Source: Planctomycetota bacterium (GTDB taxonomy: Bacteria > Planctomycetota > PLA2 > JAEUHO01). From it: a DNA stretch of 64,000 bases. How positions within the stretch are numbered: position 1 is the first letter of the stretch; each line of letters opens with the position of its first letter. The stretch is from positions 209,854 to 273,853 of the forward strand of contig CBDCWP010000039.1 of assembly GCA_965223505.1 (NCBI GenBank), given 5' to 3'. The notes under the pieces are model-generated. The model was not told where the DNA came from. It worked only from the letters and a program-made list of their open reading frames with translations, and ran no database searches. The position numbers and the translations under genes were made by a program. Of this stretch, positions 1 through 41,745 are shown in pieces.

Positions 1-215
1 TCATCGGACTCGTCGTCGGGATGGTGCAGCGTTCGCGCGAGCGGGCGCTCATTCGCGAGATCGATGCAACTGAAGATGCGGAGGAAAAGAAGGCGCTGCG
101 AAAGGAGCTGCGTGCGCTTCGTCGCAAGCACGGCAAGGGGGGCGGCGCCGCCGGCGGCTGCGGCGGTTGCGGCGGCTGCGGCGGTTGCGGCGGCTGCGGC
201 GGTTGCGGCGGTTGA
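1..215 (+). CDS. 3' end of a gene that starts upstream of the window. The predicted C-terminus has a hydrophobic segment, then a Lys/Arg/Glu-rich helix, then a (Cys-Gly-Gly)x7 tail.
   Basis: Open frame runs from position 1 to the stop at 213-215. The DNA has an 18-nt periodic ggcggctgcggcggttgc repeat at 142-212 that encodes CGGCGGCGG... Confidence 0.4.
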   Translation, partial: IGLVVGMVQRSRERALIREIDATEDAEEKKALRKELRALRRKHGKGGGAAGGCGGCGGCGGCGGCGGCGG

Positions 216-292
216 CGGCCGCGGGGGGCGCCGTGCCGATGTGCCTCACGGCCGGCCCGCATGTGTCTGCGACCGCCGGACGACGCTGATCG

Positions 293-1255: not shown

Positions 1256-1369
1256 CTCACACCTCCGACAACGGGTGCGAGCATAGCGGCGGGAGCGCTC
1301 ATTTGCGCGCCAGACTGCAAATCCGTATGCTCACGGCTACTGGTGTAGCGACTGATCGAGGGAAAGCGT

Positions 1370-4219
1370 GTGAAGCCCGAACCCGTGCTCCGCGTCCTTG
1401 CGGGCCTCCTGTTTCTCGGAGGGCTGGCCTATCTCGTCGGCCCGTGGGTGCTTCCGGACATCGTTCGCGAGCGACCGTTCCTGCCGCACTCCGTGGTCAA
1501 GGTGATCGTGCTCGGGTTGTGTTGTCTGCACGGAAGCGGGTGGCTCGTGCGGCACCGTCCGCTCATCGGCGCGACGCTCCTCGCGCATCTGGTCTCGATC
1601 GGCGCGATGGTGCTGTACATCGTGGCGCTGCCCGCCGCGGGCGCCATGGGGCGCGATGGCGACGGCTGGCCGGTGCGCGACGTGCTGATCGGCGCGATCG
1701 TGCTCGACGGCGTGATCACGCTCGTGCTTCTGTGGTCCTGGCTGCGCGCGCGCGGCGCGACACGGCCCCCGACCCCCGCGCCGCCGGGGCCCGACGACGG
1801 TGCGCTTCGTCGCGTGCTCGTCGTCGTCGGTGTCTTCTTCGGCGCGGCGACCGTCGCGCTCGTCGCGCTGCCGTTCTTGTGCCCGGGCATCGCCGTGGAG
1901 CTGCCGTTCGTGTCCAACGCAGGCGTTCGTACGGCGATCCTGGCGCTGCTGTGCTTCGTCGCCTGTCGAAACCCGCGGCGCCATGCGGCCGCGCTCGACA
2001 TCCTCGTCGTCGGTCAGCTCGTCGCGGTCCTCGCCGGCCTCGCGCTTCTGCCGGGCTCGGACGGCTCGGCGTGGTTCCACGTCGGCTCGGTCGAGCTGTC
2101 CCGGCGTCTCGTCCTGCTGCTTGTTGTCGGGGTGGACGCCGTGCTGGGCCTGCTCCTCCTGCTGGGCGCGGTGCGTGCGTGGCGCCGGCGCGAGAAGCTG
2201 AAGTTCCTGCGGCCCGTCGAGTTCCGCGCGCTCGAAGCGTTGGCCGATCTGCTCGTGGACGTCCGTTCGCCCGGCATGCCCTCGGCGGGCGACGTGGCTC
2301 GACACACGGACGCGCACCTCGCGCCGATCCGGGCGGCCAAGCTCTGGCTCTTTCGCGCTGCGCTCTTCGGTACGCAGCTGTTGCCCGTCTTCCGCTTGCG
2401 GCCGCCCATGTCCGAGATGGAACCCGAGCTTCGCCGCAAGGACCTGCAGCAGCGCTTCGGCTACAAGCCGCTGAGCGAGCTCGACGACGACCGCGGTCGC
2501 CAGATCCTGCAGGCGCTGATCCGCATCTCGAAACAGCTCGTCTACGTCGGCTACTACAACGATCCCAAGGTGCATCCGAGCATCGGCTACACGCCGTTCT
2601 CCCAGCGTCCCGAGCGCGACTTCGAGGATCCGCCCGGCCGCGAAGTCTCTACGACGAAGCTCGACGTGACACCGGCCGACGAGCTACCCGACATCGTCGC
2701 GACGGAGGTCTGCGTGATCGGAAGCGGGGCGGCCGGCTCGACGCTCGCGCACGAGTTCACCCAAGCCGGGCATCGCGTCCTGTTGATCGAGCGCGGCGGG
2801 TACACGGAGCCGAGCGCGTTCACCGAGAACGAGCTCGACATGGTCGGGCGCCTCTATGCCGACGGTATCACCGGCCAGACGGAGGACTTTCGCTTCACGA
2901 TCCTGCAGGGGAGCTGCGTGGGGGGCGGCACGACGATCAACAACGGTGTCATCTTCGATCCACCCGCGTATCTGCTCGATCGTTGGAACCAAGAGCACGC
3001 AGCCGGGATCGACGTCGCCGAACTGCAAGCGAGCGTCCAGGCCATGCGCGCCCATCTGCGTGTGCAACGGCAAACGCCGTACAACGAGACCGGTGTGGAT
3101 CCGGACAACGCGTCCTTTCTGAACCCGTCCGGCTTCCCGTTCATCGAAGCCCTCCGCAAGCATGCCGGCGCGCTGTACCCCGACAACGGCGCGGTCGAGG
3201 CCAACATCGAGAACAACCTCGGCACCGGCTACGAGAACATCGGCGACCGCTACGGGCGCAAGCTCGGGACGCTCGAGACGCTGCTTCCCAAGGCGCAAGC
3301 GACGGGCCGGCTCACCGTTACGGCGGGGTTGGACATCGACCGGCTGCTGACGGGCGGCGGCGCGCGCGTGCGTGAAGCCCAGGGCGCCACGCCCGGCGGA
3401 CGCCGCATTCGCGTTCACGCCGAAAGGTTCGTCATCGCGGCAGGGGCGGTCGCGTCCTCCTGGTTGCTGATCCGCAACGGCATCCGTCTCGGCGGGCGGG
3501 TGGGCCGGGGATTCTCGGCCAACATGGGGTCCTATCTCACCGTCGACTTCGGGCGCGAGGTCGGCAGCGAAGAAGGCCTGCAGATCTCGCACTACGCGAT
3601 TCCGAAGCCGTGGCCCGAGGGTGAGCCGCCCTACGTGCTCGAGACGTGGTGGAACCCGCCCGCGATCCAGGCGACGAACATGCCCGGTTGGTTCGAGGAT
3701 CACCAGAGCAACATGCAGGCCTACCGCAACATGATGGCGGTCGGCGTGATCGTCGGCACCGCGGCCACCGGCACGGTGCGGCCGGCGCTGACGGGCGGCG
3801 CCGAGGTGGTGTTCAAGCCCGGGGCGCAGGAGCTGGATCGGCTTGCCGCCGGCCTGCGATCCGTGGCCGAGATCTCGATCAAGGACGGCGCCGAGCGGGG
3901 CGAGGCCGTACGCGTCATGCCGAACACGTGGCAGTACGACGCGTTCACGAAGCTGGATGAGCTGGACCGTCTCGACCGGCTCGTTCGCAAGAGCGACTAT
4001 CTGACGCTGGGCACGGGCCATCCGCAGGGCGGCAACGCGATGAGCTCCGACGCTGGACGGGGCGTGGTCGATCCGAACTTCCGCGTGCACGGCATGGACA
4101 ACCTCTACGTCTGCGACGCGAGCGTCTTCCCGACGAGCGTCGGCCTCAATCCGCAGATGACGGTGTTCGCGCTCGCGCACTACGCAGCGCGCCGGATCAC
4201 CGACGGGGGTGGATCGTGA
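1370..4219 (+). CDS. Fusion protein: an N-terminal polytopic membrane domain of about 330 aa joined to a C-terminal GMC-family FAD-dependent oxidoreductase.
   Basis: 949-aa ORF with a GTG start after GGAAAG. Multiple hydrophobic helices precede a Rossmann FAD motif, GSGAAGS. The C-terminus carries the GMC signature, ...HGMDNLYVCDASVFPTSVGLNPQMT..., with His/Asn active-site context. Confidence 0.8.
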   Translation: MKPEPVLRVLAGLLFLGGLAYLVGPWVLPDIVRERPFLPHSVVKVIVLGLCCLHGSGWLVRHRPLIGATLLAHLVSIGAMVLYIVALPAAGAMGRDGDGWPVRDVLIGAIVLDGVITLVLLWSWLRARGATRPPTPAPPGPDDGALRRVLVVVGVFFGAATVALVALPFLCPGIAVELPFVSNAGVRTAILALLCFVACRNPRRHAAALDILVVGQLVAVLAGLALLPGSDGSAWFHVGSVELSRRLVLLLVVGVDAVLGLLLLLGAVRAWRRREKLKFLRPVEFRALEALADLLVDVRSPGMPSAGDVARHTDAHLAPIRAAKLWLFRAALFGTQLLPVFRLRPPMSEMEPELRRKDLQQRFGYKPLSELDDDRGRQILQALIRISKQLVYVGYYNDPKVHPSIGYTPFSQRPERDFEDPPGREVSTTKLDVTPADELPDIVATEVCVIGSGAAGSTLAHEFTQAGHRVLLIERGGYTEPSAFTENELDMVGRLYADGITGQTEDFRFTILQGSCVGGGTTINNGVIFDPPAYLLDRWNQEHAAGIDVAELQASVQAMRAHLRVQRQTPYNETGVDPDNASFLNPSGFPFIEALRKHAGALYPDNGAVEANIENNLGTGYENIGDRYGRKLGTLETLLPKAQATGRLTVTAGLDIDRLLTGGGARVREAQGATPGGRRIRVHAERFVIAAGAVASSWLLIRNGIRLGGRVGRGFSANMGSYLTVDFGREVGSEEGLQISHYAIPKPWPEGEPPYVLETWWNPPAIQATNMPGWFEDHQSNMQAYRNMMAVGVIVGTAATGTVRPALTGGAEVVFKPGAQELDRLAAGLRSVAEISIKDGAERGEAVRVMPNTWQYDAFTKLDELDRLDRLVRKSDYLTLGTGHPQGGNAMSSDAGRGVVDPNFRVHGMDNLYVCDASVFPTSVGLNPQMTVFALAHYAARRITDGGGS

Positions 4220-4719
4220 TCACGCTCGGGCGGGTGGCCATCGTCGTCGGCGTGTACGCGGTGCTGTGGCTGTCGTTTCGCCTCTTCACGCGCAGCCCCG
4301 ACAAGTCCGAGCGCACCACCTTCCTGGTGTTGGGGGGCGGCTGGGCGCTCAGCACGTTCGTCGGGAACTGGCTCCTGTCGTTGATCGGGGCGATGAGCTT
4401 CATGCCTTGGATCACCAACGCGTTGCACACATTCGTGTGGATCGGCTTCTGCCTCACCTGGCTCTACTTCGGCGTGCGCTTCCGGTACGGGCTGCTGGCG
4501 CAGTTCTCGTTCTTCGCGGGTTTCAGCCTCGTGGTCAAGGTGGCGGAGCGCCTGCTGTTCGGAACGTGGGAGCACGACCACTTCATCTGGCTCGTGGACG
4601 GCAACGTCGCGTACATCGTGGGCTGGTCCCTGATGGACGGGCTCTATCCGTTCATCAGCATCATGTTCCTACGGCTGCTTGCACAGCGGTTGCCGAAGCT
4701 GCGCCTCGTCATTCGGTAG
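4216..4719 (+). CDS. Small polytopic membrane protein, translationally coupled to the GMC oxidoreductase.
   Basis: The ATG overlaps the upstream stop as an ATGA quartet. The 167-aa product has 4-5 predicted TM helices. Confidence 0.6.
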   Translation: MITLGRVAIVVGVYAVLWLSFRLFTRSPDKSERTTFLVLGGGWALSTFVGNWLLSLIGAMSFMPWITNALHTFVWIGFCLTWLYFGVRFRYGLLAQFSFFAGFSLVVKVAERLLFGTWEHDHFIWLVDGNVAYIVGWSLMDGLYPFISIMFLRLLAQRLPKLRLVIR

Positions 4720-4900
4720 CGGGGCCGGAACGCCCGCGATCGCGAGCCTTCTCGCCCACGCAGTCGTTACCGCCTATCCGCTGCAGCCCGCGCGCGGGAC
4801 CGGGCGCCGTGCGGCCGGAGGTCGGATCCGCCAGGGGCGCGGTGTAACGGCGGCTGGCGTTCGACGTGGTTGGACTCGTCCCCTTCCAAGGAGAATCGCC

Positions 4901-5305
4901 ATGCATCACATCGCGCGCACCACCGTCCTCGTCCTTCTGGGCATCGCCGCAGCGGCGCCTTGTGCGGCCGCGCCTGCGCCCAGTCCGTTCGCCGGCAGCT
5001 ACAGGGGAGACATCGGCAATTGGGATGCCAGCCTCACCATCGACGACGGCGGCAGCATCGTCGGCGCGGCCCAGCCGTCGTGGAACAGTTTCTGCTCAAA
5101 GGCGAGCATCAGCGGGCGCGTGACGAACGATGGTTCGATCCGCATCGTGCTCCGGTACACCTGCCTCGACTTCAGCCGCAGGTTCCTGGGCGACAAGCGC
5201 ATTCGATGGGTGATCGACGGTACGGCGTCCCTCGACGCCGAGGGCAACCTGGACGTCGACTCGAGCGACCCCGTAGCCGGTGCGTTCACCCTGAACGTTC
5301 GCTGA
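4901..5305 (+). CDS. Secreted hypothetical protein of 134 aa with a signal peptide.
   Basis: AAGGAG SD lies 6 nt before the ATG at 4901. The N-terminus reads MHHIARTTVLVLLGIAAAAPCAA. I recognise no known domain. Confidence 0.6.
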   Translation: MHHIARTTVLVLLGIAAAAPCAAAPAPSPFAGSYRGDIGNWDASLTIDDGGSIVGAAQPSWNSFCSKASISGRVTNDGSIRIVLRYTCLDFSRRFLGDKRIRWVIDGTASLDAEGNLDVDSSDPVAGAFTLNVR

Positions 5306-5396
5306 CGCTGACGGTCGGCCGCTACGACGGAGACGGCTCCCTTGCGAGGGGGGTCGTTTCAGGTTCGGCGCCTCCAGTACCCTGTGCGGGAGAAAC

Positions 5397-8300
5397 ATGG
5401 CGCGACGGACGGCTCCCCTTTTTCTGGTGCTCCTGCTTTCGGTGCTCGTGCTGTCGACGTCGCGGGTCGGGGAGGCCGAAGAGCCCGTCGCGCCCACCCC
5501 GGCCCAACGCTTCGTCGACGCCTACCGAGCAGACGACGAGACGGCACAGAAGAAGATTGCCGGCGACCCTGCAATCGACCCGGTGGACGTGGTCGCGACG
5601 CTGTGGCTCTGGCGGCTCGCGGTGCTCCCGGACGAGCCGGACTCGGAGTTCCTTCCCGCGGCGACGGCGTTCGCGAGGCTGGCGGCCGCGCGCCCCGATG
5701 CGCCCAAGCTCGCCGTCGTCGTGGAGGCGCACGTTGCGATCACGGGGGAGCGCCTGGCAGCTGAGCTCGAGCGCGCCGAGGCCTGGAGCCGAGCCCGCGA
5801 CCTGAAGGCGACGCAGGAGCGTCTCGCCGCCCACGCCGAGCTCGCGCTGGCCACGGCGAACGCACAGCCCACACTGCTCACGGCGGCGATCCTGTCCCGA
5901 TGCGCCGAGGTCCTCGAGGCCGGTGGACGCCGTGCGGAGGCCGCGCGCGCGCACGGGCTCGCGGCGCGTCACGCCGACGCCTTACCTTTTGGCTGGGCCT
6001 GGCGGCCAAGGCGTGGCAATCGACGGCGCGCCTCGCAACGATGCGCGCCGCGTGGGACGACGCGGCCGCCGCGCTCGAGCGCGCTGCGGTCCGGATGGAG
6101 TCCGCGGGGTGGCACCGGCCGGCGGCTTCCATCCTGGCCAATCTCGCGCTCGTCCAGCGCCGGCAGGGCCGGCCCGATGCGTCCGCCGGCGCGGCGGCGC
6201 GCGCCGAAGACAATGCCCGCCGCGCAGGCGACGACGCCATGCGGAGGCGCGCCCGGCTTGCGCGCGCCTCCGCCTGGATCGACCAGGCGCGGTGGGAGGA
6301 GGCCGCGGCCGTGCTTCGAGAGGTCGCCGACGCCGCATCGGCGGCCGGCGACGAGCGTTCGGCCCGTACGGCGCGGCTGAACCTGGGTCTGCTGTTCTTG
6401 CGCAGCGGCCGGTTCGCCGAGGCCTTGACCGTCCACGAGCAGGAGCTGTCACGCCTTGCGTCGGAGCCGCCCAGCCAGGCCAAGGCGGCGGCGCTGCGCA
6501 ACGCCGGCATCGTCCTGCGCGAGCTGGGTCGTCTGTCGGAGGCGCGTGATCTCCAAGCGCGGGCCCTCGAGACCTACCTGGCCCTGCGGGACCGCGCGGG
6601 CGCGGGCGCCGCGCGCCTGAATCTCGGTGCGCTGGCGCTTGCCATGGGCGACCCGGCGCTCGCGAGCACCCATTACCGCGCGGCCGCCGACGCCGCGTGG
6701 GGCGCGGGGGACTTCGAGGTGGGATCCCTTGCGACCCTGAACCTCGCCGCCATCGAGCGCCTTGCGGGCAATCCGGATGCCGCGATCAAGACCCTCGAGG
6801 GCGTCGTACACCGCTGCGAGGCCGCCGGGCGTCCGGTGCCCGCCGTTGCCTTGAGCGAGCTCGGCAAGGCGCGTATGGATCACGGACAGATCGATCGCGC
6901 CCTCGAGCACTTCGCCGCGGCCGTCGAGGCCCTCGACTCGAGCGCGGAGGGACCGCGTCGTGCATCGGCGGTCCTGGCGAGCCAGGCCGCGGCGTTGCGC
7001 GAGGCGGGGCGGCTCGCCGCCGCTCTGGCTCCCGCCCGGCGTGCGCTCGAGCTGCGGCGCGCGTCGCTCGCCGGCCTCGAGGCCGGAGAGGCGGACGGAC
7101 TCGGCCTGCGCGTGGCGGAGCTCGCCGCGCTCGGCCTCGCGATCACCGCGCGGCTGTGCGCGGCGGGCACGCTCAGCGAGGCCGCCGCGGCGGCGGAGGC
7201 GTTCCGGTTCGTCGAGTGGGCCCGCGCCCTCTTGCTGGTCGAGTCCCTGCGAACAACCGGCGCGCTGGTCCATGCCACGCTCCCCGACGATTTGCGTCAC
7301 GCGCTCGAGGCGGCGTCCGCAGCACTGGACCGCGCGCGCCGGGGGCTCGCCCGCGCGTTGGCGCGGGGCGACACCGGCGCCGTCGACGCCGCCCGTGCGC
7401 GCCGCGACCGTGCATACGAGGCCCGCGAGGTCGCCTTGGCACGCGCCCACCGCCACGCGGGGCGACTCGCGCAGGTCGTGTGGCCACGACCGCTCGAGCT
7501 GGAAGCGGTTTGCGAGCTGCTCGGTCCAGGCGAGGCGCTCGTGCTGTACCAGATCGCCGAGGACCGTCTCCATGCCATCGTAGTGCGGGCGGATCGAGCG
7601 CGGCTCGTGGACCTCGGGGACACCGATGGACTCGCCGAGGATGCGCTGGCCTGGCGGCGGTTGGCGTCGGTGCCGCGGGGCCCGGAAGCGCTGCTCGCCG
7701 CCCGGCTGCACGAGCGCCTGATCGCACCGCTCGACGCAGAGCTGGCAGGGACTACATCGCTGCTCGTATCGCCTGACGGTCCGCTCACCTTCGTGTCCTT
7801 CGATGCGCTGCTCGATCGCGGAACGGGGAGGCGCCTGGTCGAAGAGTGGGTCGTGCGCGCCGTACCCTCGGCCAGCGTGCTTTCGCTGCTGCGGACGCAG
7901 GCACCGCCGGCGCGCGCGCACCAGCGCTTGTTGGCGCTCGGCGATCCCGCTCGCCCTGCGGCGCTCTCGCTTCGCGCGCAGGGGCTCGGCTTCGCGCTGC
8001 CGCGGCCGCTTCCGGGCGGTCGCCGAGAGGCCGCGGCGGTGGTGGACCGGCCCCCGCCGGAAGGAACACGTTCTCTTGCTCGGGACGGAGGCGAGCCGCG
8101 CCCGTCTTCTCGAGACCCTGGCCGCCGCGGACGAGCCCTGGCGCGCGATCCACCTCGCCTGCCACGGCCGCCTCGACGGCGAGCGTCCGCGCCTGACGGG
8201 ACTCCTGCTCGCGGGCGGGGACGTGCTCGACGTCGACGACGTGCACCGGCTGCAGGCGCCCGCCGATCTCGTCGTCCTGTCGGCGTGCGAGACCGGACGC

Positions 8301-10531: not shown

Positions 10532-12667
10532 ATGCTTCGCGCCATCGCGATCGGAACGTTGCAGTTCGCCCTTTCCCTGTCCCTTGCCGCCTGCGGTGCG
10601 TCGAACGGCGGAGACGCTGACGGCAATGCCGGCGGTGGCGGCAATGGGGGCGGCACCACGAACCTCGGCCCGGCGTCGGCCACGATCACCTGGCCGCCGG
10701 CGGGCTTCCTGACCGACCACCCCTTCATTCGTGTGCGCGGCACCGCCGCCGATCCGGACGGCGTCGCTGGCGTGACGGTGAACGGTACGGCCGCCACGAG
10801 TATGGACGGCTTCGCCCACTGGGAGGCGCTGGTGCCGCTCGCCGGCGGAACGGTGTCACTCGTCACTGCCGTCGAGGACACACTCGCCGCCGTCACGAGT
10901 CCAGCGGCCCCCGCGCTGACCGCGACGCGAGTCCCCTACGTGTCAGCGCATCCGGAGGCGATGGCATGGCACGCACCGAGCCAGCGTCACGTCATCCTGG
11001 ACAGCGAACGGCGGTCCCTCGTCGCCGTGGACCCCGTCACCGGCATGGGGGCCGAGCTCAGCGGTCCGTTCGTCGGCACCGGGCTCGACCTGATCGACCC
11101 GCGGGACTTCGTCCTGGACCCCGCGTCGCCGAATCACGCGTATGTCGTGGACCGGACGCAGCAGGCCGTGCTCCACGTGGACTTGCTCACCGGGGACCGG
11201 CTGATTCACTCGGGCCCCGCGGTGGGCACCGGCGTGGCCTTGTCCCGGCCGATCTCGATCGACTACGACACGGCGGGAGCCCGACTGCTCGTCGGCGACG
11301 CGCAGCTCGACGCCCTGCTGGCCGTGGACCCGGCGACCGGCAATCGCACGGAGCTGTCGGGCCCGAGCGTGGGCACGGGACCTTCGTTGGCGGAGCCGAA
11401 GCGCTTGACCCTGTGGCAGGGCAAGGCCCTGGTCCTGGAGACGTGGCAGCGGGTGCTGATCACGGTGGACCTCGCGACGGGTCACCGCACCATCGTTTCC
11501 AACTTCCTCGATGCCAACCAAGGGCTCGTCGTCGGCGCGCCCGCCGGTTGCCTGGTCGACGAGACGACGAGCACGGCCTACTTCGGCGCCTTCCCGGGCA
11601 ACGTCCTCGAGGTCGATCTCACGACCGGCCTGCGCACACTCCTTTCGGCTCCGTCGATCGGTTCGGGCCCCGTCCTTCGCAACGTGGCCGCGCTGACCCA
11701 CGGGCCCGGCGCGAACGAGATTTCCGCGTTCGATTGGGAGTTCGGCGCCATCCGCAGCATCGATCGAACGACGGGCGACCGCACGGCGGTGTACCGGCCC
11801 GCGCGCGGAACCGGCACGCACATCGAGCGTCCCGCCGGTCTTGCGCTGGCGGCCGACGGCCAGTCGCTCTACCTCATGGACGCGTACACGCAGCTGCTGC
11901 GTGTCGACGTCGCCACCGCGGATCGCGTCTCCGTGCCGGTCTCGGGTTCGCCCGTGATCTCGGCGCAGGGTCTCGCGTTGGACGCGTTGGGCAACCGCCT
12001 CTTCACGCGTGGCTCCATCGGCGGGCTGCCGGTGATCCATGCCGTGGATCTGCTCACGAACACGAAGAGCGTCATCGCCGGCAACGGCGTGGGCACGGGC
12101 CCGATGGACTACCTGCGCGGCCTGGTCTTCGACCCACTCCAGGCTCGGCTCCTCGTCGCCCGCTACACCCCCGGATCGATCCTCGGCGTCGATCCCGCGA
12201 TCGGAGACCGCGTCGAGCTGTCCGGGCCGAACGTCGGCACCGGCTACGCCACGTCTGTCGTCGATCTCGACCTCGTTCCCGGCACCGGCGACGCGTTCGT
12301 GGCGGCGTCCAATGGGTACGTCATCGCTGTGGATCCGACAACGGGCGACCGTACGGTCGTGAGCAGCATCGTGGTGGGGACGGGGCCGAGCATCCCGGTC
12401 AGCGGCACGATCCGCCTCGTGTTCGACGGCACAGCGGGGCGCGTGCTGGTCGTGTCCCGGGGGAAGGTGATGTCGGTCGACCCGGTCAGCGGTGAACGCG
12501 TGGTCGTGAGCGACGTTGCAACCGGCGTCGGCCCCGTCATCTCGGCGTTCGGCGGCGACATCGCCCTCGACGCGCAGCGTGGCGTGCTCTGGATCGCCGA
12601 CAACGGCACGAATTCGTTGACGGCCGTCGACCTGACCTCGGGCGATCGCGTCGTCGTCTCCCGCTAG
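10532..12667 (+). CDS. Lipoprotein with more than 12 degenerate repeats of the consensus VDPxTGDRxxxSGPxVGTGP (beta-propeller-like).
   Basis: Lipobox LSLAAC follows the signal peptide, then a Gly/Asn-rich linker. The periodic motif recurs about every 45-55 aa. Confidence 0.7.
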   Translation: MLRAIAIGTLQFALSLSLAACGASNGGDADGNAGGGGNGGGTTNLGPASATITWPPAGFLTDHPFIRVRGTAADPDGVAGVTVNGTAATSMDGFAHWEALVPLAGGTVSLVTAVEDTLAAVTSPAAPALTATRVPYVSAHPEAMAWHAPSQRHVILDSERRSLVAVDPVTGMGAELSGPFVGTGLDLIDPRDFVLDPASPNHAYVVDRTQQAVLHVDLLTGDRLIHSGPAVGTGVALSRPISIDYDTAGARLLVGDAQLDALLAVDPATGNRTELSGPSVGTGPSLAEPKRLTLWQGKALVLETWQRVLITVDLATGHRTIVSNFLDANQGLVVGAPAGCLVDETTSTAYFGAFPGNVLEVDLTTGLRTLLSAPSIGSGPVLRNVAALTHGPGANEISAFDWEFGAIRSIDRTTGDRTAVYRPARGTGTHIERPAGLALAADGQSLYLMDAYTQLLRVDVATADRVSVPVSGSPVISAQGLALDALGNRLFTRGSIGGLPVIHAVDLLTNTKSVIAGNGVGTGPMDYLRGLVFDPLQARLLVARYTPGSILGVDPAIGDRVELSGPNVGTGYATSVVDLDLVPGTGDAFVAASNGYVIAVDPTTGDRTVVSSIVVGTGPSIPVSGTIRLVFDGTAGRVLVVSRGKVMSVDPVSGERVVVSDVATGVGPVISAFGGDIALDAQRGVLWIADNGTNSLTAVDLTSGDRVVVSR

Positions 12668-12787: not shown

Positions 12788-13966
12788 CTAGTCGTCGTCC
12801 CTGCGGGAGCGGCGGCGGTCGTTCCGCTCTCGGCGGTCCCGGTGGTCGCGCACCTTCCGACGATGATCTCGCACGACGGGCTCGCGACGATCGCGGTGAT
12901 CGCGGACGATCGGCTTGCGGCGGTCGCGGTGATCGCGGACGATCGGCTCGCGGCGGTCGCGGTGATCGCGGACGATTGGCTCGCGGCGGTCGCGATGGTC
13001 ACGGACGACGGGCTCGCGACGGTCGCGGTGATCACGGACGACCGGCTCGCGGCGGTCACGGTGGTCCCGGACGACGGGCTCGCGGCGGTCGCGAAGGTCC
13101 CGGACGACCGGCTCGCGGCGGTCGCGATGGTCCCGGACGACGGGCTCGCGGCGGTCGCGGTGATCACGGACGACGGGTTCGCGGCGGTCACGGTGGTCCC
13201 GGACGACGGGCTCGCGGCGGTCGCGGTGGTCCCGGACGACGGGCTCGCGGCGGTCGCGGTGGTCCCGGACGACGGGCTCGCGGCGGTCGCGATGGTCACG
13301 GACGACGGGTTCGCGGCGGTCGCGATGGTCCCGGACGACGGGCTCGCGGCGGTCACGGTGATCACGGACGACGGGTTCGCGGCGGTCACGATGGTCCCGG
13401 ACGACCGGCTCGCGGCGGTCGCGATGGTCACGGACGACGGGTTTGCGGCGGTCACGGTGGTCCCGGACGACGGGCTCGCGGCGGTCACGGTGATCACGGA
13501 CGACGGGTTCGCGGCGGTCACGGACGACCGGCTCGCGGCGGTCGCGATGGTCCCGGACGACCGGCTCGCGGCGGTCGCGATGGTCGCGCACGACCGGCTC
13601 GCGGCGGTCGCGATGGTCCCGGACGACGGGCTCGCGGCGGTCGCGGGGCGCGGGCACGCCGCGCTCGTGCCCCGTCACGATCGGCGGACGACGACGGTCA
13701 CGGTGATCACGGACGACCGGCTCGCGGCGGTCGCGGGGCGCGGGCACGCCGCGTTCGTGCCCCGTCACGATCGGCGGACGACGACGGTCACGGCGGTCGC
13801 GCGGCGCGGGCACGCGGTGCTCGTCCCTACGTACCGGCGCTGCCCGCGGGGAGCCGGAGTCCGTTCGTGAAGGGGATTGGGGCGTTTCGCCGTCCTCCCC
13901 GGCAAGGGCCAGGGCGGGGGCCGTCAGGATGGCAGCGAGGATCGCGGGGAGACAGAGGGACTTCAC
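12788..13966 (-). CDS. Secreted protein made mostly of ~25 tandem copies of an 11-aa charged repeat, consensus VVRDHRDRREP.
   Basis: GTG start at 13966, preceded by AAAGGAG with 5-nt spacing. A classic signal peptide (MKSLCLPAILAAILTAPALALA) is in the same frame as the 33-nt DNA repeat. GC3 in this frame is about 100%. Confidence 0.6.
   Translation of the reverse strand: MKSLCLPAILAAILTAPALALAGEDGETPQSPSRTDSGSPRAAPVRRDEHRVPAPRDRRDRRRPPIVTGHERGVPAPRDRREPVVRDHRDRRRPPIVTGHERGVPAPRDRREPVVRDHRDRREPVVRDHRDRREPVVRDHRDRREPVVRDRREPVVRDHRDRREPVVRDHRDRRKPVVRDHRDRREPVVRDHRDRREPVVRDHRDRREPVVRDHRDRREPVVRDHRDRREPVVRDHRDRREPVVRDHRDRREPVVRDHRDRREPVVRDHRDRREPVVRDHRDRREPVVRDLRDRREPVVRDHRDRREPVVRDHRDRREPVVRDHRDRREPIVRDHRDRREPIVRDHRDRRKPIVRDHRDRREPVVRDHRRKVRDHRDRRERNDRRRSRRDDD
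12868..13640. repeat. Tandem 33-bp repeat, about 23 copies, unit roughly gtgatcgcggacgatcggctcgcggcggtcgcg.
   Basis: Directly visible periodicity. Copy-to-copy differences are mostly third-position or single-codon changes. Confidence 0.9.
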
Positions 13967-14167
13967 GTCGGCTCCTTTCGAGCGGGGTTCGCGACCTAAC
14001 TCCCCGCTCGCCTCGAGGGGGGACCCACATTTCCGGATTCGTTCAGCGACGCGGCGCCTGCGGCGCGGGCAGCGCCGACGTGGCCCGCACGCTGCGTGCT
14101 CGACGATCCCTGCCGTTGGCGCGGATGACGGCCCGTTTCGAGGTGGCGACGGACCCCTGGTCACGCC

Positions 14168-15631
14168 TCAATCGAGTGCGAGCGGCTCACGGGCGAGCTT
14201 CCAGCCGCTCAGCTCGATCACTCTGGAAGTCGTCTTCGAACCGATCTTGACCTTGAACAGGATCCGCCTCGGTGCGAGTACGCCGTGCGTCTTCGTGTAG
14301 GTCACCTCGGCTTCGCGAACGATCTCGTCGGGGCCGCCTTTGTCTACGACTTCGCGCCACGTGACCGGCACATGGTGAGGAAACGGCACCGTCTCGTGGA
14401 AGCCGGGCTCCCGGACCTGCCGGTGGTACCGGAACGTGGTCACGTTCAGCATCTCGATGTCGTAGGCGTCCTCGTAGATCGTCGAGAGGACTCCATTGGG
14501 TTCGAACACGAAGGTCGAGATCGCGTCGCCCGGGGCGTCCAGTCCCTCGGTGATCTCAACACGTCCGTCTTTCTTGTTCGTCTTCACGGGCTGGGACCCC
14601 AGCTGCCTGCGAACCCAGTAGCGCTGGAAGCAGTGGTCAAGGAGCTTGCGCCAGTGTTGCGTGACGTACACGAACGTCAGACCGAACGGCTTCGTCTCGG
14701 CCGGCTCGTCCCAGTCCACCCGTCCCTGCTCGGACTCGAAACGGTAGGTTCCCCGGATCGTCCGCTCACCCTCCGTGAATGAGACGCGACAGTTCGCGTC
14801 GCGGTACCGCCACAGCCCGGGGTGGTATCCGATCGCCTCCCAGCGCTCGATGGCCTTGCGCGCATCGGCATCGAGCTCGGGCCCTCGCTCCCTGCCGAAC
14901 TTCCACTGCCGCAATGTGAGGGCGAGGGGCACGGTCTGCGACGCGGTCTTCATCTCCAGTGCGACGCGGACCGGGACGGCGTGCCCCCGAACACGCACCC
15001 ACGTCAGCGTGCCGTCCTCGCTCATCGTGCCGTAGCTGGGGATCGTCCGAGTGACCCGGTACTGCCGCAGCAGGTGCAGATCGTGCCACTTGCGGTAGCC
15101 GAGGGAGATCTCGACCGGGTGCGGCTTCACGCCGGGCATGCGCGCCGTTGCCGAGATGCCGACGAGTACTCCGGTCCGATCGAAGCGGAACGCGCGGTAG
15201 GGCGACTTCCCTTCGACGATCACATCGGTGCCTGCTGCGCCGGGTCTGGACCGAAGCCTGCAGTTTCTCAGGTACTGTTCCCGTCCGGTGGCGCGCAGCA
15301 GCGTCTCGAGCACCATCATCCACGAACCGTGCTCGTACGCACCGCCGTCTGCGGATACGTGCCAGGCGTACTTCAGACCTCTGAAACCGAACCTCAGAAT
15401 GCCGTCGAGCACGGTCCGCCGCGGCGACGTCGTGGTGTAGAGCTGGAGTTTACACTCTCCACTCCCGGCGCCGCCTCGATCGAGGTTGTATTCCTTCGCC
15501 CGCCACCCGTTCAGCAGTTCTTTCGACCGCGCATCCATCTCGAGCCCGGGGATGGAGAGATCCTTGGCGAGGACGCAGGCGTCGTGTGAAAGGAAGACGA
15601 GGATGGGGAGGACGAGGCGAGACACGGACAT
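14168..15631 (-). CDS. Secreted hypothetical protein of 487 aa.
   Basis: GGAGGT SD lies 4 nt upstream of the ATG at 15631. Signal peptide MSVSRLVLPILVFLSHDACVLA. The composition is balanced and non-repetitive. Confidence 0.65.
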   Translation of the reverse strand: MSVSRLVLPILVFLSHDACVLAKDLSIPGLEMDARSKELLNGWRAKEYNLDRGGAGSGECKLQLYTTTSPRRTVLDGILRFGFRGLKYAWHVSADGGAYEHGSWMMVLETLLRATGREQYLRNCRLRSRPGAAGTDVIVEGKSPYRAFRFDRTGVLVGISATARMPGVKPHPVEISLGYRKWHDLHLLRQYRVTRTIPSYGTMSEDGTLTWVRVRGHAVPVRVALEMKTASQTVPLALTLRQWKFGRERGPELDADARKAIERWEAIGYHPGLWRYRDANCRVSFTEGERTIRGTYRFESEQGRVDWDEPAETKPFGLTFVYVTQHWRKLLDHCFQRYWVRRQLGSQPVKTNKKDGRVEITEGLDAPGDAISTFVFEPNGVLSTIYEDAYDIEMLNVTTFRYHRQVREPGFHETVPFPHHVPVTWREVVDKGGPDEIVREAEVTYTKTHGVLAPRRILFKVKIGSKTTSRVIELSGWKLAREPLALD

Positions 15632-17381: not shown

Positions 17382-18443
17382 CGCCGCGGCTACGCCAACG
17401 GCTTCAAGCGCAAGCGCGTCAGAACCCGCTTGGGCGAGATCGACGTCCAGGTGCCCCAGGTTCGCGACGTCGAGGGCGGCGACACGTTCTACCCCTCCAG
17501 CCTCGAACGCGGCCAGCGAAGCGAGAGAGCGCTCACGCTGGCCCTGGCGGAGATGTACGTCCAGGGCGTCTCGACGCGGCGTGTCGAGGCGATCACGAAG
17601 GTGCTTTGCAACGGCCTGGAGATCAGCTCCACGAGCGTGTCTCGAGCAGCTGCGCTGCTCGACGAGGAGCTCGAGCGCTGGCGCACACGTCCGCTCGGCG
17701 CGTTCAAGTACCTCGTACTCGACGCTCGCTACGAGAAGGTGCGCCACGGCGGATCGGTGCGCGACTGCGCTGTGCTGATCGCCATCGGCGTCGATTCTCA
17801 CGGCAAGCGCAGCGTGCTGGGAACGAGCGTGAGCCTCTCGGAGGCCGAGGTCCATTGGCGCGAGTTCCTCGCTTCTCTCCAGGATCGCGGCCTTCACGGC
17901 GTCGAGCTCATCACCAGCGACGGCCACAAGGGCATTGCGGCCGCGCTGGCGGCGCGGTTCGCCGGCGTGGCCTGGCAGCGCTGCCAGTTCCACCTGCAGC
18001 AGAACGCGCAGAGCTACGTTCCGCGCCAGAAGCTTCGACGCGACGTTGCCGCTGACCTTCGCGCCGCGTTCAATGCGACGTCGCGTCGCGAGGCCGAAGA
18101 GAAGCTCAAGGCCTTCGTGAAGAAGTGGGACAAGCCCGCGCCCGACCTGGCGCGCTGGGCCGAAGAGAACATTCCGCAGGGCTTCACCGTGTTCGATCTC
18201 GGCCTGAACGAAGCGCAGCGCAAGCGCCTTCGCACCACCAACAGCCTCGAGAACCTGAATCAGCAGATCCGCCGCCGCACTCGCGTTGCCGGACTCTTTC
18301 CAAACGAAGCGTCCTTGCTGCGGCTCGCAAGCGCGGTGCTCATCGAGATCAGCGAGGAATGGGAAACCGGACGGAGGTACTTGCCGAGGGACGACGCTTG
18401 ATCAACCGCTCAGCGATTTACAGAAAGAACGTTGCTCTGCCCT
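17382..18443 (+). mobile_element. 5'-truncated remnant of an IS256-family insertion sequence (only the right ~1.06 kb).
   Basis: The segment matches the two intact copies (20719-22116 and 60291-61688) in the aligned stretches checked at both ends, from the point where the flanking sequence diverges (~17382) to the shared right terminus ...gaacgttgctctgccc at 18443. No left IR is present. Confidence 0.8.
17430..18401 (+). pseudogene. IS256-family transposase missing its N-terminus (C-terminal 323 aa only).
   Basis: Identical to residues 91-413 of the 413-aa transposases at 20834 and 60406. Confidence 0.8.
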
Positions 18444-20646: not shown

Positions 20647-20718
20647 GTCTCTTCGATCTTGACCGGGACTGTGACGTTCTGATCAGGGTAGCGGCTCTCT
20701 CCGGCGCTCCTCGTCGAG

Positions 20719-22116
20719 AGGGTGTACCGTTCTTTCTGTAAATGGCTCCCCGGAGGAGAGGCGCTCGCTTCGCTTGAATCAGCTAGCTGATTCAAGCGAA
20801 GCGGGCGCGCCGCCATCTCCCGGGGCGAACTGAGTGGCGGATCAACGCCGTACCTTTGCAGGTAACGACACCACGCAAAGGAGGAACGACGTGACCCACC
20901 ACGAACAGCGTACGCCTTGGGGCGACGCACTGGAAGCGCTCAGCGAGAACGGGTTCGACGGCATGGCTGAGGCGATGCGGGTGCTGGTGAACGAGGCCAT
21001 GAAGGTCGAACGCAGTGCCTTCCTCGGCGCCGAGCCCCACGAACGCACGGATCAGCGCCGCGGCTACGCCAACGGCTTCAAGCGCAAGCGCGTCAGAACC
21101 CGCTTGGGCGAGATCGACGTCCAGGTGCCCCAGGTTCGCGACGTCGAGGGCGGCGACACGTTCTACCCCTCCAGCCTCGAACGCGGCCAGCGAAGCGAGA
21201 GAGCGCTCACGCTGGCCCTGGCGGAGATGTACGTCCAGGGCGTCTCGACGCGGCGTGTCGAGGCGATCACGAAGGTGCTTTGCAACGGCCTGGAGATCAG
21301 CTCCACGAGCGTGTCTCGAGCAGCTGCGCTGCTCGACGAGGAGCTCGAGCGCTGGCGCACACGTCCGCTCGGCGCGTTCAAGTACCTCGTACTCGACGCT
21401 CGCTACGAGAAGGTGCGCCACGGCGGATCGGTGCGCGACTGCGCTGTGCTGATCGCCATCGGCGTCGATTCTCACGGCAAGCGCAGCGTGCTGGGAACGA
21501 GCGTGAGCCTCTCGGAGGCCGAGGTCCATTGGCGCGAGTTCCTCGCTTCTCTCCAGGATCGCGGCCTTCACGGCGTCGAGCTCATCACCAGCGACGGCCA
21601 CAAGGGCATTGCGGCCGCGCTGGCGGCGCGGTTCGCCGGCGTGGCCTGGCAGCGCTGCCAGTTCCACCTGCAGCAGAACGCGCAGAGCTACGTTCCGCGC
21701 CAGAAGCTTCGACGCGACGTTGCCGCTGACCTTCGCGCCGCGTTCAATGCGACGTCGCGTCGCGAGGCCGAAGAGAAGCTCAAGGCCTTCGTGAAGAAGT
21801 GGGACAAGCCCGCGCCCGACCTGGCGCGCTGGGCCGAAGAGAACATTCCGCAGGGCTTCACCGTGTTCGATCTCGGCCTGAACGAAGCGCAGCGCAAGCG
21901 CCTTCGCACCACCAACAGCCTCGAGAACCTGAATCAGCAGATCCGCCGCCGCACTCGCGTCGCCGGATTGTTTCCGAACGAAGCGTCCTTGCTGCGGCTC
22001 GCAAGCGCGGTGCTCATCGAGATCAGCGAGGAATGGGAAACCGGACGGAGGTACTTGCCGAGGGACGACGCTTGATCAACCGCTCAGCGATTTACAGAAA
22101 GAACGTTGCTCTGCCC
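20719..22116 (+). mobile_element. Intact IS256-family insertion sequence (1398 bp) flanked by an 8-bp TSD, tcgtcgag.
   Basis: Termini are agggtgtaccgttctttctgtaaat... and ...atttacagaaagaacgttgctctgccc, imperfect IRs sharing a 15-nt core. The 8-bp direct repeat is at 20711-20718 and 22117-22124. Confidence 0.9.
20834..22075 (+). CDS. IS256-family (mutator-type) transposase, 413 aa.
   Basis: Family-typical motifs are present: GYANGFKRKRVRTRLGEI, VQGVSTRRVE, LVLDARYEKVR, AIGV, WQRCQFH. AAAGGAGGAAC SD lies upstream. Confidence 0.9.
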   Translation: MADQRRTFAGNDTTQRRNDVTHHEQRTPWGDALEALSENGFDGMAEAMRVLVNEAMKVERSAFLGAEPHERTDQRRGYANGFKRKRVRTRLGEIDVQVPQVRDVEGGDTFYPSSLERGQRSERALTLALAEMYVQGVSTRRVEAITKVLCNGLEISSTSVSRAAALLDEELERWRTRPLGAFKYLVLDARYEKVRHGGSVRDCAVLIAIGVDSHGKRSVLGTSVSLSEAEVHWREFLASLQDRGLHGVELITSDGHKGIAAALAARFAGVAWQRCQFHLQQNAQSYVPRQKLRRDVAADLRAAFNATSRREAEEKLKAFVKKWDKPAPDLARWAEENIPQGFTVFDLGLNEAQRKRLRTTNSLENLNQQIRRRTRVAGLFPNEASLLRLASAVLIEISEEWETGRRYLPRDDA

Positions 22117-34640: not shown

Positions 34641-35033
34641 TCGACTTGCCGCTCGTCGTCGGTGCAGACGATGGCGGCCTAGGTGTCACCCGCCGCCTAA
34701 ATGCAACGGGGCGAGCCGAGGACCGTGCTTCGGAGAATGTGACACCGTCAACCAAACCAGCAGACCTCTCACGCCACGATTACGACCGACTCCACGCCCT
34801 TCACGTGGCGCACAAGCATATTGGCGCCGTCGGACTGCGGCATAGCCCCGAAGTCAACCGCCAGACGCCTGACAGTTCAGGGATTCATGATCCCCTTCGA
34901 AGTGCTGGCGCGCTCGCCGGACCGGATCGCTCGCCAGCCCCAAGAACTGGCCACTTCAGGAGAATCTGAGAAACATCGCCGTGCCGTCCTGGAGGCCCGC
35001 ATTTGACCTCGTGGCGCCAAAGGACGCCGCGAC

Positions 35034-41533: not shown

Positions 41534-41609
<76 letters not shown>

Positions 41610-41745
41610 GACTCCACGTCGGACGACGGAGGATACCCGGCCCCCTACGATCCCGGACCAATTGCAACCCCCCGACAAACCCCAACAAATAGGGCATCCC
41701 GAAAAAACTCTCGTACGACCCCGCCCCCCATGCATCTGAAAGGGC

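What the first reader, a model, noticed from the sequence alone, without database searches (positions are those of the whole stretch)
12788..13966. Secreted protein built from ~25 tandem copies of an 11-aa Arg/Asp/His repeat (VVRDHRDRREP).
A 33-bp DNA tandem repeat is translated, in the frame that carries a canonical SD, a GTG start and a signal peptide, into a highly charged, zwitterionic, His-containing repeat polypeptide. The ~390-aa product is almost entirely R/D/H/E/P/V. I know of no characterised family with this repeat. A secreted polyampholyte could bind extracellular DNA, polyphosphate or metals, or take part in matrix or biomineral interactions. The repeat number is likely hypervariable between strains.
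Basis: partly seen in the sequence, partly recalled or inferred. Interest (0 to 1): 0.6.

Follow-up and report, generated by a model that had tools for sequence, protein, structure and literature searches.

The report
Exported 24-copy PVVRDHR repeat protein
This is a real gene for an exported, strongly positively charged, probably unstructured protein that carries 24 copies of a short motif (Pro-Val-Val-Arg-Asp-His-Arg). I found the same motif in hundreds of unnamed exported bacterial proteins from several phyla, and its function is unknown.

Summary
A 33-bp tandem array (TRF 12873-13646, 23.7 copies) lies inside a minus-strand ORF, 13966..12788, of 392 aa. The ORF has a GTG start, an AAAGGAG Shine-Dalgarno site 5 nt upstream, and a signal-peptide-like N-terminus.

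Of 57 nucleotide differences between the units, 51 are synonymous in the VVRDHRDRREP frame (26% expected). In the opposite DDGLAAVAVVP frame only 5 are.

The main new result concerns the functional core. It is the heptapeptide P-[VI]-[VI]-R-D-H-R, not the 11-mer. A profile search recovers at least 821 unnamed protein clusters with this motif, from Alphaproteobacteria, Myxococcota, Planctomycetota and others. Almost all have signal or lipoprotein leaders. Their linkers vary, they share no conserved gene neighbour, and no Pfam family, NCBIfam family, PDB entry or paper covers them.

The window protein is the extreme case: 24 motifs against a maximum of 16 elsewhere, with a unique charged linker (DRREP). 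The mature protein is net +43 with pI 11.6, so it is polycationic, not zwitterionic. AlphaFold2 predicts no secondary structure in the repeats.

My best guess is a multivalent, histidine-tunable binder of an anionic envelope or matrix polymer. Metal binding and a multi-copy peptide precursor are live rivals. Copy-number hypervariability could not be tested because no close relatives exist in the collections searched.

The parts
12788..13966 (-). Coding sequence, 392 aa plus TAG stop (12788-12790). GTG start at 13964-13966.
   Evidence: ORF and translation. Frame confirmed by 51 synonymous to 6 non-synonymous differences between units (binomial P = 1.6e-23) and by motif homology.
13972..13978 (-). 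Shine-Dalgarno AAAGGAG, with a 5-nt spacer (CCGAC) before the GTG.
   Evidence: Read directly from the sequence.
13901..13966 (-). Signal peptide, aa 1-22 (VKSLCLPAILAAILTAPALALA, predicted cleavage ALA|GE). There is no lipobox.
   Evidence: Sequence. AF2 models aa 6-14 as a helix. 137 of 148 Met-initiated family members have a comparable hydrophobic N-terminus.
13628..13900 (-). N-terminal mature region, aa 23-113. It holds a short unique segment and then two copies of a 30-aa/90-bp unit (RDRRRPPIVTGHERGVPAPRDRREPVVRDH) that includes the first VVRDHR.
   Evidence: TRF 90-bp repeat at 13605-13817. The two nucleotide differences in the shared part of the copies are both synonymous.
12878..13627 (-). 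Core array, aa 114-363: 22 full 33-bp units encoding [VI]VRDHRDRR[EK]P and one truncated unit.
   Evidence: There are 18 distinct DNA units but 17 identical peptides. Mean pairwise difference is 3.75 of 33 nt. The longest exact internal repeat is 68 bp.
13505..13528 (-). Truncated 24-bp unit VVRDRREP. It looks like a 9-bp in-frame deletion that removed D-H-R.
   Evidence: The VRDHR pattern is missing here.
13076..13108 (-). Variant unit VVRDLRDRREP (His to Leu). This is the only second-codon-position change in the array.
12791..12877 (-). C-terminal tail, aa 364-392 (VVRDHRRKVRDHRDRRERNDRRRSRRDDD). It has two more VRDHR motifs and no Pro. It is predicted helical over aa 373-391 (12794-12850).

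Best explanation
The ORF 13966..12788 (minus strand) is a genuine translated gene. Its product is exported by the Sec pathway and is a 46.5-kDa, polycationic (net +43, pI 11.6), probably disordered chain. The chain displays 24 copies of the short linear motif P-[VI]-[VI]-R-D-H-R at a fixed 11-residue pitch, separated by the charged linker DRREP. The motif, not the 11-mer, is the conserved functional unit. It defines a large, undescribed family of exported proteins and lipoproteins in several bacterial phyla, and this protein is its most expanded and most regular member. Inferred mechanism, not shown: each motif is a small binding site, with two Arg plus an Asp-His pair whose charge changes near neutral pH. 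The array would then act as a multivalent, pH-tunable binder or cross-linker of an anionic polymer outside the cytoplasm, such as peptidoglycan, LPS, exopolysaccharide, eDNA or polyphosphate. My sub-probabilities are about 0.9 for a real exported repeat protein of the VRDHR family, about 0.6 for the motif being a multivalent binding site of some kind, and about 0.35 for the ligand being a polyanionic envelope or matrix polymer.
For: Frame and selection: 51 of 57 differences from the unit consensus are synonymous (26% expected), and 9 of 12 variable columns are third codon positions. Both the motif and the linker are constrained. Translation signals: SD, GTG and a signal-like N-terminus. Family: phmmer gives E = 8e-25 to P0001, and all true hits share repeated [VI][VI]RDHR. 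A profile search gives 821 clusters at E <= 1e-3 among only 8000 scored candidates. I judged about 50 of them real, in Bradyrhizobium, Microvirga, Hoeflea, Roseibium, Kofleriaceae, Archangiaceae, Planctomycetota, Ignavibacteriales and Pseudonocardia. Motif strictness: in 566 motifs from 104 non-redundant proteins the logo is P65% [V47/I28] [V84/I12] RDHR. After P[VI][VI], 330 of 386 cases continue RDHR, and single-residue variants are rare. Codons at the motif vary freely (GAC 126/GAT 99, CAC 115/CAT 110), so conservation is at the protein level. Export: 137 of 148 members have hydrophobic N-termini and 29 have lipobox-like ones. Modular use: the motif array occurs alone or fused to different domains, including a jacalin lectin, W-rich BcpO-like domains and other C-terminal domains. 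That is the pattern seen for anchoring and binding modules. No cross-phylum conserved neighbour exists, which argues for a generic ligand over a dedicated partner. Disorder: AF2 with an 18-sequence alignment gives pLDDT 51 and no secondary structure in aa 23-372. Charge.
Against: There is no expression, localisation or binding data. The signal peptide was judged by eye. Low pLDDT is weak evidence for disorder. The window protein differs from typical members: it has a uniform, highly charged DRREP linker instead of variable P/T/S-rich linkers, and it lacks the GG[VT]xV[TS] motif present in 99 of 164 members. Its role could therefore differ from theirs. Two cationic Arg beside Asp-His fit anion binding, but this is reasoning from chemistry only. 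The strict identity of whole 11-mers would also fit a multi-copy peptide precursor. The neighbouring genes are orphans and give no functional context.
Confidence: 0.5

Rival explanations
1. Metal-binding sponge or chaperone. Each Asp-His pair (one His per 11 residues, 27 His in total) anchors Cu(II), Ni(II) or Zn(II), as in the prion octarepeats, the GHHPH repeats of histidine-rich glycoprotein, or the periplasmic protein SmbP. The protein would buffer or store metal in the periplasm or matrix.
For: Asp and His are invariant in every motif. The proteins are exported. The chain is flexible. Many members are tiny periplasmic peptides, for example the roughly 59-aa Bradyrhizobium gene with 4 motifs and a terminal His.
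Against: The two invariant flanking Arg and the net +43 charge disfavour cation binding. No metal-homeostasis genes recur next to family members. There is only one His per motif and no His clusters, Cys or Met.
Confidence: 0.2
2. Polyprotein precursor. The array is cut after each RDHR by a trypsin-like or other extracytoplasmic protease. This would release about 22 identical 11-mers (DRREPVVRDHR) here and nonapeptides in most relatives, acting as signals or antimicrobials. The analogues are eukaryotic multi-copy peptide precursors.
For: 17 of 22 units are identical at the protein level despite 11% synonymous DNA divergence, and the linker is as constrained as the motif. 45 of 104 family proteins end within 3 residues after the last RDHR, and many mature chains begin at a unit boundary. 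The modal spacing gives 9-residue units. An M14 carboxypeptidase gene follows the VRDHR gene in two Kofleriaceae-type loci.
Against: No processing enzyme, exporter or receptor is conserved next to family genes across taxa. The M14 adjacency is seen only in two related, syntenic loci and is absent from four other annotated loci. Linkers in other members vary from 2 to more than 20 residues, which is unlike conserved peptide products. The motif arrays are often fused to folded domains.
Confidence: 0.12
3. Non-specific physical role. A well-mixed polyampholyte coil could act as an entropic spacer, hydration agent or desiccation protectant (hydrophilin-like), or as a periplasm-spanning tether, with no specific ligand.
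For: 60% of residues are charged, the chain has a regular Pro and no predicted structure. The 11-residue period recalls LEA-3 and ApoA-I repeats, and there is a weak ApoA-I hit at E = 0.003.
Against: A purely physical role does not explain a cross-phylum invariant heptapeptide whose single-residue variants are rare. There is no Pfam LEA hit. Pro in every unit and two beta-branched Val, together with AF2, give no helices.
Confidence: 0.1
4. Not a functional protein. The array would be non-coding or selfish repetitive DNA, or the expressed product would come from another of the four open frames (for example DDGLAAVAVVP on the plus strand).
For: In 73% G+C DNA, four overlapping frames stay open across the array, so ORF length alone proves nothing. 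No promoter or terminator was detected. There is no ortholog.
Against: Synonymous to non-synonymous counts are 51:6 in the VVRDHRDRREP frame, against 5:52, 1:56, 5:52 and 1:56 in four others. The sixth frame (44:13) shares third positions and gives no ORF of 60 aa or more. Only this frame has an SD, a signal peptide and homologues. No Rfam family matches.
Confidence: 0.03

Closest known systems
Unnamed 'hypothetical' proteins with repeated PVVRDHR. Examples: HEU0030560.1 (Kofleriaceae), MBS1119209.1 (Deltaproteobacteria MAG), MBO1904468.1 (Microvirga sp. 3-52), WP_322990300.1 (Hoeflea sp.), and the roughly 59-aa Bradyrhizobium gene.
   Same: N-terminal export signal; repeated, near-invariant [VI][VI]RDHR usually preceded by Pro; low complexity; no Pfam or NCBIfam domain over the repeats.
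   Different: Relatives carry 3-16 motifs (median 6). Their linkers are variable and P/T/S-rich, and 60% have a GG[VT]xV[TS] motif. Many also carry W-rich, PepSY-like or Cys-motif modules. The window protein has 24 motifs, a uniform DRREP linker, none of those extras, and no Trp at all.
Short-repeat envelope-anchoring modules of exported bacterial proteins, such as choline-binding repeats and GW, SLH or LysM modules (from general knowledge).
   Same: Repeated units are appended to varied functional domains of exported proteins, with multivalency. This is the architectural logic seen across the VRDHR family.
   Different: Those modules are folded units of 20-60 residues with known ligands and Pfam models. 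VRDHR is a 6-7-residue linear motif in a chain predicted to be disordered, and its ligand is unknown. This is an analogy, not membership.
Histidine-containing tandem repeats that bind metals: the prion octarepeat PHGGGWGQ, the GHHPH repeats of histidine-rich glycoprotein, and SmbP of Nitrosomonas (from general knowledge).
   Same: One His per short unit in a flexible, extracytoplasmic tandem array, which could make behaviour pH-dependent.
   Different: There is no sequence similarity. In the window protein the His is flanked by Asp and two Arg, and the chain is strongly cationic.
TonB-type Pro-rich charged spacers, (Glu-Pro)n and (Lys-Pro)n (from general knowledge).
   Same: Periplasmic location, regularly spaced Pro, alternating charges, and an extended conformation.
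   Different: There is no membrane anchor and no TonB C-terminal domain. The window protein has an invariant VRDHR core, not dipeptide repeats.
Apolipoprotein A-I and LEA-3 11-mer repeats.
   Same: An 11-residue period punctuated by Pro. ApoA-I is the only PDB sequence hit (E = 0.003).
   Different: The match rests on periodicity and composition. The window protein has no amphipathic hydrophobic face and no predicted helix.

Membership tests
   VKSLCLPAILAAILTAPALALA|GE. The same feature is present in 137 of 148 family members. Judged heuristically; SignalP was not run.
   24 VRDHR motifs, with Pro before nearly all of them. Family logo.
   E = 8e-25 to P0001 and 47 hits that all carry the motif. 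The profile search retrieves 821 clusters.
   The linker is a uniform DRREP. The GG-V-T motif is absent here but present in 99 of 164 members. I treat the window protein as an atypical, expanded member.
RTX calcium-binding nonapeptide repeats (Pfam PF00353) | Tandem GGxGxDxUx repeats matching the Pfam model | tested here: not met
   No Pfam family at E <= 0.01. The protein has only 7 Gly.
LEA group 3 / hydrophilin 11-mer repeats (Pfam LEA_4) | An 11-mer amphipathic-helix repeat matching the model | tested here: not met
   No Pfam hit. Pro occurs in every unit, and AF2 predicts no helix in the repeats.
Apolipoprotein A-I-like 11/22-mer repeats | Amphipathic helical 11/22-mers and significant homology | tested here: not met
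   The best PDB hit has E = 0.003 and 19.8 bits, driven by periodicity. No helices are predicted.
DivIVA/Wag31 (NF050102) and pneumococcal PspC (NF033839) | Score at or above the NCBIfam curated cut-off | tested here: not met
   48.6 bits against a cut-off of 260, and 21.4 bits against 500. Both are low-complexity matches.
YXWGXW/BcpO-like lipoproteins with VRDHR tails (myxobacterial relatives P0020, P0033, P0035) | Lipobox plus a Trp-rich domain upstream of the VRDHR tail | tested here: not met
   The window protein has no Trp and no lipobox. The relatives give weak BcpO hits.
Histidine-repeat metal-binding proteins | Demonstrated stoichiometric metal binding by the repeat | not testable with these tools
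   Needs ITC, ICP-MS or spectroscopy on the protein or on peptides.
Known anti-phage defence proteins (PADLOC) | Match to a PADLOC model | tested here: not met
   No hits for the protein or for three neighbouring proteins.

The most novel reading that the evidence does not exclude
P-[VI]-[VI]-R-D-H-R is a previously unrecognised extracytoplasmic short linear motif. It would be conserved from Alphaproteobacteria to Myxococcota, Planctomycetota and some monoderms because it binds one universal ligand, either a cell-envelope polymer or a small anion or metal. Bacteria would use it as a portable, multivalent anchoring or binding tag. The window protein would be a 24-valent, free-standing version with a lineage-specific polyampholyte linker.
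Probability: 0.4. Interest if true: 0.7.

Novelty: new variant of a known kind. Interest (0 to 1): 0.55.

Why it matters
Conserved short linear motifs are rarely described in exported bacterial proteins. This one is a nearly invariant heptapeptide. It occurs in at least 800 protein clusters from soil and aquatic lineages that include well-studied genera such as Bradyrhizobium, and no database or paper names it. If the motif is a binding tag for a common envelope or matrix component, or for a metal or anion, it would assign a role to many 'hypothetical' small periplasmic proteins. It would also give a compact, engineerable affinity module. The window protein is 24-valent and almost perfectly regular, which makes it the natural reagent for finding the ligand. 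The 59-aa Bradyrhizobium gene offers a tractable genetic test.

Tried and rejected
- **Curated libraries.** Pfam, NCBIfam and PADLOC scans of the protein, its neighbours and 10 diverse family members found nothing real. The only matches were sub-threshold low-complexity hits to Wag31 and PspC.
- **Exhaustive phmmer against 1.8 billion representatives.** The top hits (P0048-P0065 and others) contain no RDHR at all. They match only through repeat periodicity and composition, so I rejected them as relatives.
- **PDB search.** It returned only weak ApoA-I matches caused by periodicity.
- **The search for related loci with alignments.** I replaced it with a three-motif degenerate DNA pattern. About half of those hits are wrong-frame noise in high-G+C Actinomycetota, and I discarded them by inspection.
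- **Search for close relatives or alleles.** The exact protein and two other window proteins are not in the assembly index. The metagenome scan by protein found pattern matches but no tblastn-confirmed relative, possibly because of low-complexity masking. An explicit pattern for DHRDRR[EK]P[VI]VRDHR found nothing. Copy-number variation therefore could not be assessed.
- **Conserved gene neighbourhood.** An all-against-all comparison of ORFs from 120 loci found no cross-phylum partner. Six annotated contexts differ from one another, apart from M14 peptidase, SOUL and ADH genes shared by two syntenic Kofleriaceae-type loci.
- **Upstream same-strand ORF 14168-15631.** It has no homologue and no domain.
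- **Promoter, terminator and Rfam scans.** All were empty.
- **AF2 of family member P0039**, run to test for a C-terminal outer-membrane barrel. The result was pLDDT 33, which is uninformative.
- **Viral contigs.** Seven pattern hits, none belonging to the PVVRDHR family.
- **Literature.** Searches for 'VRDHR' and for 'RDHR' plus 'repeat' returned nothing relevant.
- **Source organism.** It was not identified. The gene content looks myxobacterial, but this is an impression, not a test.
Full report
**1. The observation**

The window carries a 33-bp tandem array at 12873-13646 (23.7 copies, 87% matches, TRF score 1072). It is flanked on the 5' side of the gene by a 90-bp two-copy repeat at 13605-13817. 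The array lies inside a minus-strand ORF.

Read from the GTG at 13964-13966 to the TAG at 12788-12790, the ORF encodes 392 aa. The minus strand reads GAAAGGAGCCGAC-GTG just upstream. That is an AAAGGAG Shine-Dalgarno site with a 5-nt spacer.

The product starts VKSLCLPAILAAILTAPALALA|GEDG. It has a basic n-region, a long hydrophobic core and A-x-A before the likely cleavage site, and it has no lipobox. I judged this by eye because no SignalP was available.

The body of the protein consists of:
- two 30-aa units;
- 22 full 11-aa units, 17 of them exactly VVRDHRDRREP;
- one truncated unit, VVRDRREP;
- a Pro-free tail, VVRDHRRKVRDHRDRRERNDRRRSRRDDD.

A degenerate DNA pattern for V-R-D-H-R matches 24 times in the 64-kb window. 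All matches are in this gene and on this strand, and shuffles give 0.24. The description is therefore correct and far beyond chance.

**2. Which frame is real**

Four overlapping frames stay open across the array in this 73% G+C DNA, so ORF length proves nothing. The pattern of variation between units decides the question.
- The 22 full units comprise 18 different DNA sequences. They differ pairwise at 3.75 of 33 positions on average.
- Of 57 differences from the consensus, 51 are synonymous in the VVRDHRDRREP frame, where 26% is expected (binomial P = 1.6e-23).
- Nine of the 12 variable columns are third codon positions.
- The six exceptions are V to I (three times), E to K (twice) and one H to L.
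- In the opposite DDGLAAVAVVP frame only 5 of 57 differences are synonymous.
- One antisense frame scores 44:13 because it shares third positions, but it gives no ORF of 60 aa or more.
- The motif and the DRREP linker are equally constrained.

**3. What the protein looks like**

The mature chain is 370 aa and 46.5 kDa. Its composition is 35% Arg, 16% Asp, 15% Val, 11% Pro, 8% Glu and 7% His. Sixty percent of residues are charged. The pI is 11.6, and the net charge is about +43 at pH 7 and about +66 at pH 5.5. It is a polycationic polyampholyte, not a charge-balanced zwitterion.

AlphaFold2 with an 18-sequence alignment gives a mean pLDDT of 51. It predicts no secondary structure anywhere in aa 23-372. 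Only the signal peptide and the C-terminal tail (aa 373-391) are modelled as helices. This agrees with an extended or disordered chain but is only weak evidence for it.

**4. Relatives: the core is a heptapeptide**

Pfam gives nothing for the protein. NCBIfam gives only low-complexity matches far below threshold: Wag31 at 48.6 bits against 260, and PspC at 21 against 500. PADLOC gives nothing. PDB gives only weak ApoA-I hits caused by the shared 11-residue, Pro-punctuated period.

The word-indexed search of 5.8 billion proteins returned 47 hits, the best at E = 8e-25. Inspecting them shows what they share. It is not the 11-mer but a repeated [VI][VI]RDHR, usually preceded by Pro and separated by linkers of variable length and composition.

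The exhaustive phmmer search gave higher-scoring hits. Those long proteins contain no RDHR at all, so I rejected them as periodicity and composition artefacts.

A profile built from 14 motif-bearing proteins retrieved 821 clusters at E <= 1e-3 from only 8000 scored candidates. Every one is named 'hypothetical', apart from one JGI 'uncharacterized protein (DUF433 family)' label, and almost none has a Pfam domain.

By inspection about 50 are real exported VRDHR proteins. They come from:
- Bradyrhizobium, many species, with a conserved roughly 59-aa gene: signal peptide, four motifs and a terminal His;
- Microvirga, Hoeflea, Roseibium, Hyphomicrobiaceae and Xanthobacteraceae;
- Kofleriaceae, Archangiaceae and other Myxococcota;
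- Planctomycetota;
- an Ignavibacteriales MAG;
- a Pseudonocardia MAG.

The remaining loci are wrong-frame noise, mainly from Streptomyces.

**5. How strict the motif is**

Across 566 motifs in 104 non-redundant proteins the logo is P(65%)-[V47/I28]-[V84/I12]-R-D-H-R-[T30/D20]. The linkers are rich in P, T and S. The commonest spacing gives a 9-residue unit.

After P[VI][VI], 330 of 386 occurrences continue RDHR. Single-residue variants of RDHR number about 30 in total. The codons vary freely (GAC 126 against GAT 99, CAC 115 against CAT 110, six Arg codons), so conservation is at the protein level.

Of 148 Met-initiated members, 137 have a hydrophobic signal-like N-terminus and 29 have a lipobox-like one. 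In 45 of 104 proteins the chain ends within three residues of the last RDHR. A second motif, [S/A/Q]GG[VT]xV[TS], occurs in 99 of 164 members but not in the window protein.

The motif arrays occur alone or next to different modules. These include a jacalin lectin, Trp-rich BcpO/YXWGXW-like domains behind a lipobox, a two-Cys C-terminal motif, and a PepSY-like-looking domain (my impression; Pfam found no match).

Named members are all 'hypothetical protein'. Full-text literature searches for VRDHR, and for RDHR with 'repeat', find nothing relevant.

**6. How the window protein differs**

It has the most motifs seen: 24, against a maximum of 16 and a median of 6. It also has the longest regular run: 22 or more units at period 11, against at most 11 units at period 9 elsewhere. 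Its linker is a uniform, highly charged DRREP.

No other sequence in the 241-million-record metagenome collection contains DHRDRR[EK]P[VI]VRDHR. The protein-based metagenome scan confirmed no relative. Neither the protein nor two other window proteins are in the assembly index.

It is therefore a lineage-specific expansion. The array is not freshly duplicated, because units show 11% synonymous divergence, yet it has been kept almost identical at the protein level. Exact internal repeats of up to 68 bp remain, so unequal recombination is possible. Hypervariability itself could not be tested.

**7. Genomic context**

The gene is convergent with a 711-aa lipoprotein gene (10532-12667) that has internal beta-propeller-like repeats. 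It lies 200 bp downstream of a same-strand 487-aa ORF with a signal-like N-terminus. That ORF has no domain and no homologue. No promoter-like site, terminator-like site or Rfam match was found.

Elsewhere the window encodes a Ser/Thr kinase fused to an FGE-sulfatase domain, an ECF sigma factor fused to CarboxypepD_reg repeats, three copies of an IS256-family element, a phage integrase and a HerA-like ATPase. This looks myxobacterial, but I did not establish the taxon.

Across 120 loci, no neighbouring gene family recurs with VRDHR genes across phyla. Six annotated contexts differ from one another. The exception is an M14 carboxypeptidase directly downstream in two syntenic Kofleriaceae-type loci.

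**8. Mechanism**

*Shown:* a translated frame under purifying selection; export signals; membership of a large motif family; a polycationic chain that is probably unstructured.

*Inferred:*
- A near-invariant heptapeptide, repeated on flexible linkers and attached to varied exported domains in several phyla, with no dedicated neighbouring gene, is most simply a small binding site for something common to all these organisms. The arrays would supply avidity.
- Two Arg flanking an Asp-His pair suggest an anion-binding, pH-tunable site. Cation binding looks less likely for the same reason.
- My leading proposal is therefore multivalent binding or cross-linking of an anionic envelope or matrix polymer, at about 0.35.
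- The rivals are metal binding through Asp-His (about 0.2), a multi-copy peptide precursor cut after RDHR (about 0.12), a non-specific spacer or hydration role (about 0.1), and a non-functional array (about 0.03).
- The precursor model is supported by the identity of whole units and by proteins ending at RDHR.

None of these can be decided with the tools available here.

**9. Verdict**

It needs correction on charge and on the claim that nothing shares the repeat. It is untested on ligands and on hypervariability.

The gene is an extreme, atypical member of an undescribed but widespread PVVRDHR-motif family of exported proteins. I rate it moderately interesting (0.55). The function is unknown, but the motif's strictness, breadth and lack of annotation make it a well-defined experimental target.

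Noticed in passing
window ~17382-17681, 20718-22075, 60290-61647: An IS256/Mutator-family insertion sequence (413-aa transposase, PF00872, E = 5e-101) is present in three copies. They are 100% identical over the compared 300-nt stretches.
   Followed up: partly
window ~18000-41600: A lower-G+C block (0.61-0.64 against 0.68-0.75) carries a phage-type integrase (35003-36697), a HerA/DUF87 ATPase (30244-32397) and a Cys-rich CPCC protein. It ends next to tRNA-Pro(cgg) at 41534-41610. It is probably an integrated mobile element.
   Followed up: no
window 57139-57546 and 63845-64000: A 127-bp tandem repeat (2.7 copies, 95% matches) has a further 156-nt copy, 100% identical, at the very end of the window.
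   Followed up: no
window 10532-12667 (+): A 711-aa lipoprotein (LAAC lipobox) is built of repeats of roughly 45 aa, of the form D..TG.R..lSGP.VGTG. It has no Pfam hit and only a faint YncE beta-propeller match. It is convergent with the repeat gene.
   Followed up: partly
window 14168-15631 (-): A 487-aa ORF with a signal-like N-terminus lies directly upstream on the same strand. It has no domain and no homologue among 5.8 billion proteins, so it is an orphan and possibly co-transcribed.
   Followed up: partly
L005, L022, L032, L035, L037, L056, L085, L092, L095, L110 (Bradyrhizobium spp.): A conserved gene of about 59 aa encodes a signal peptide followed by four xxVRDHR units and a terminal His. 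In L032 it sits beside a LuxR-type regulator, with an ECF sigma factor and a ChrR-like anti-sigma pair a few kb away. This is a tractable model for the motif.
   Followed up: partly
Family proteins, e.g. P0001-P0004, P0013, P0075, L006, L039, L111: Two further recurrent elements occur in VRDHR proteins. One is [S/A/Q]GG[VT]xV[TS], found in 99 of 164 and loosely like a TonB box. The other is a C-terminal RRGGSPCIRSVFGGPCFGL two-Cys motif, found in about 33, mostly the Microvirga type.
   Followed up: no
L001 8678-10414 and L129 5766-7499: An M14 carboxypeptidase gene lies immediately downstream of the VRDHR lipoprotein gene in two syntenic Kofleriaceae-type loci whose proteins end in ...RDHR or ...RDHRH. 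A SOUL haem-binding gene lies upstream in both.
   Followed up: no
L125 (IMG/VR contig, 151 kb), 1-5501: At least six paralogous ORFs are made of (R/Q/L)ERDHR hexapeptide repeats and end in ...LKVIFA. They have no signal peptide and belong to a different repeat family from PVVRDHR.
   Followed up: no
L038 5829-7068 (Caldilineaceae MAG): This protein has four N-terminal VRDHR motifs, no signal peptide, and a duplicated C-terminal domain (GRWK..G..W..DFEG...). It may be a cytoplasmic exception to the export rule.
   Followed up: no
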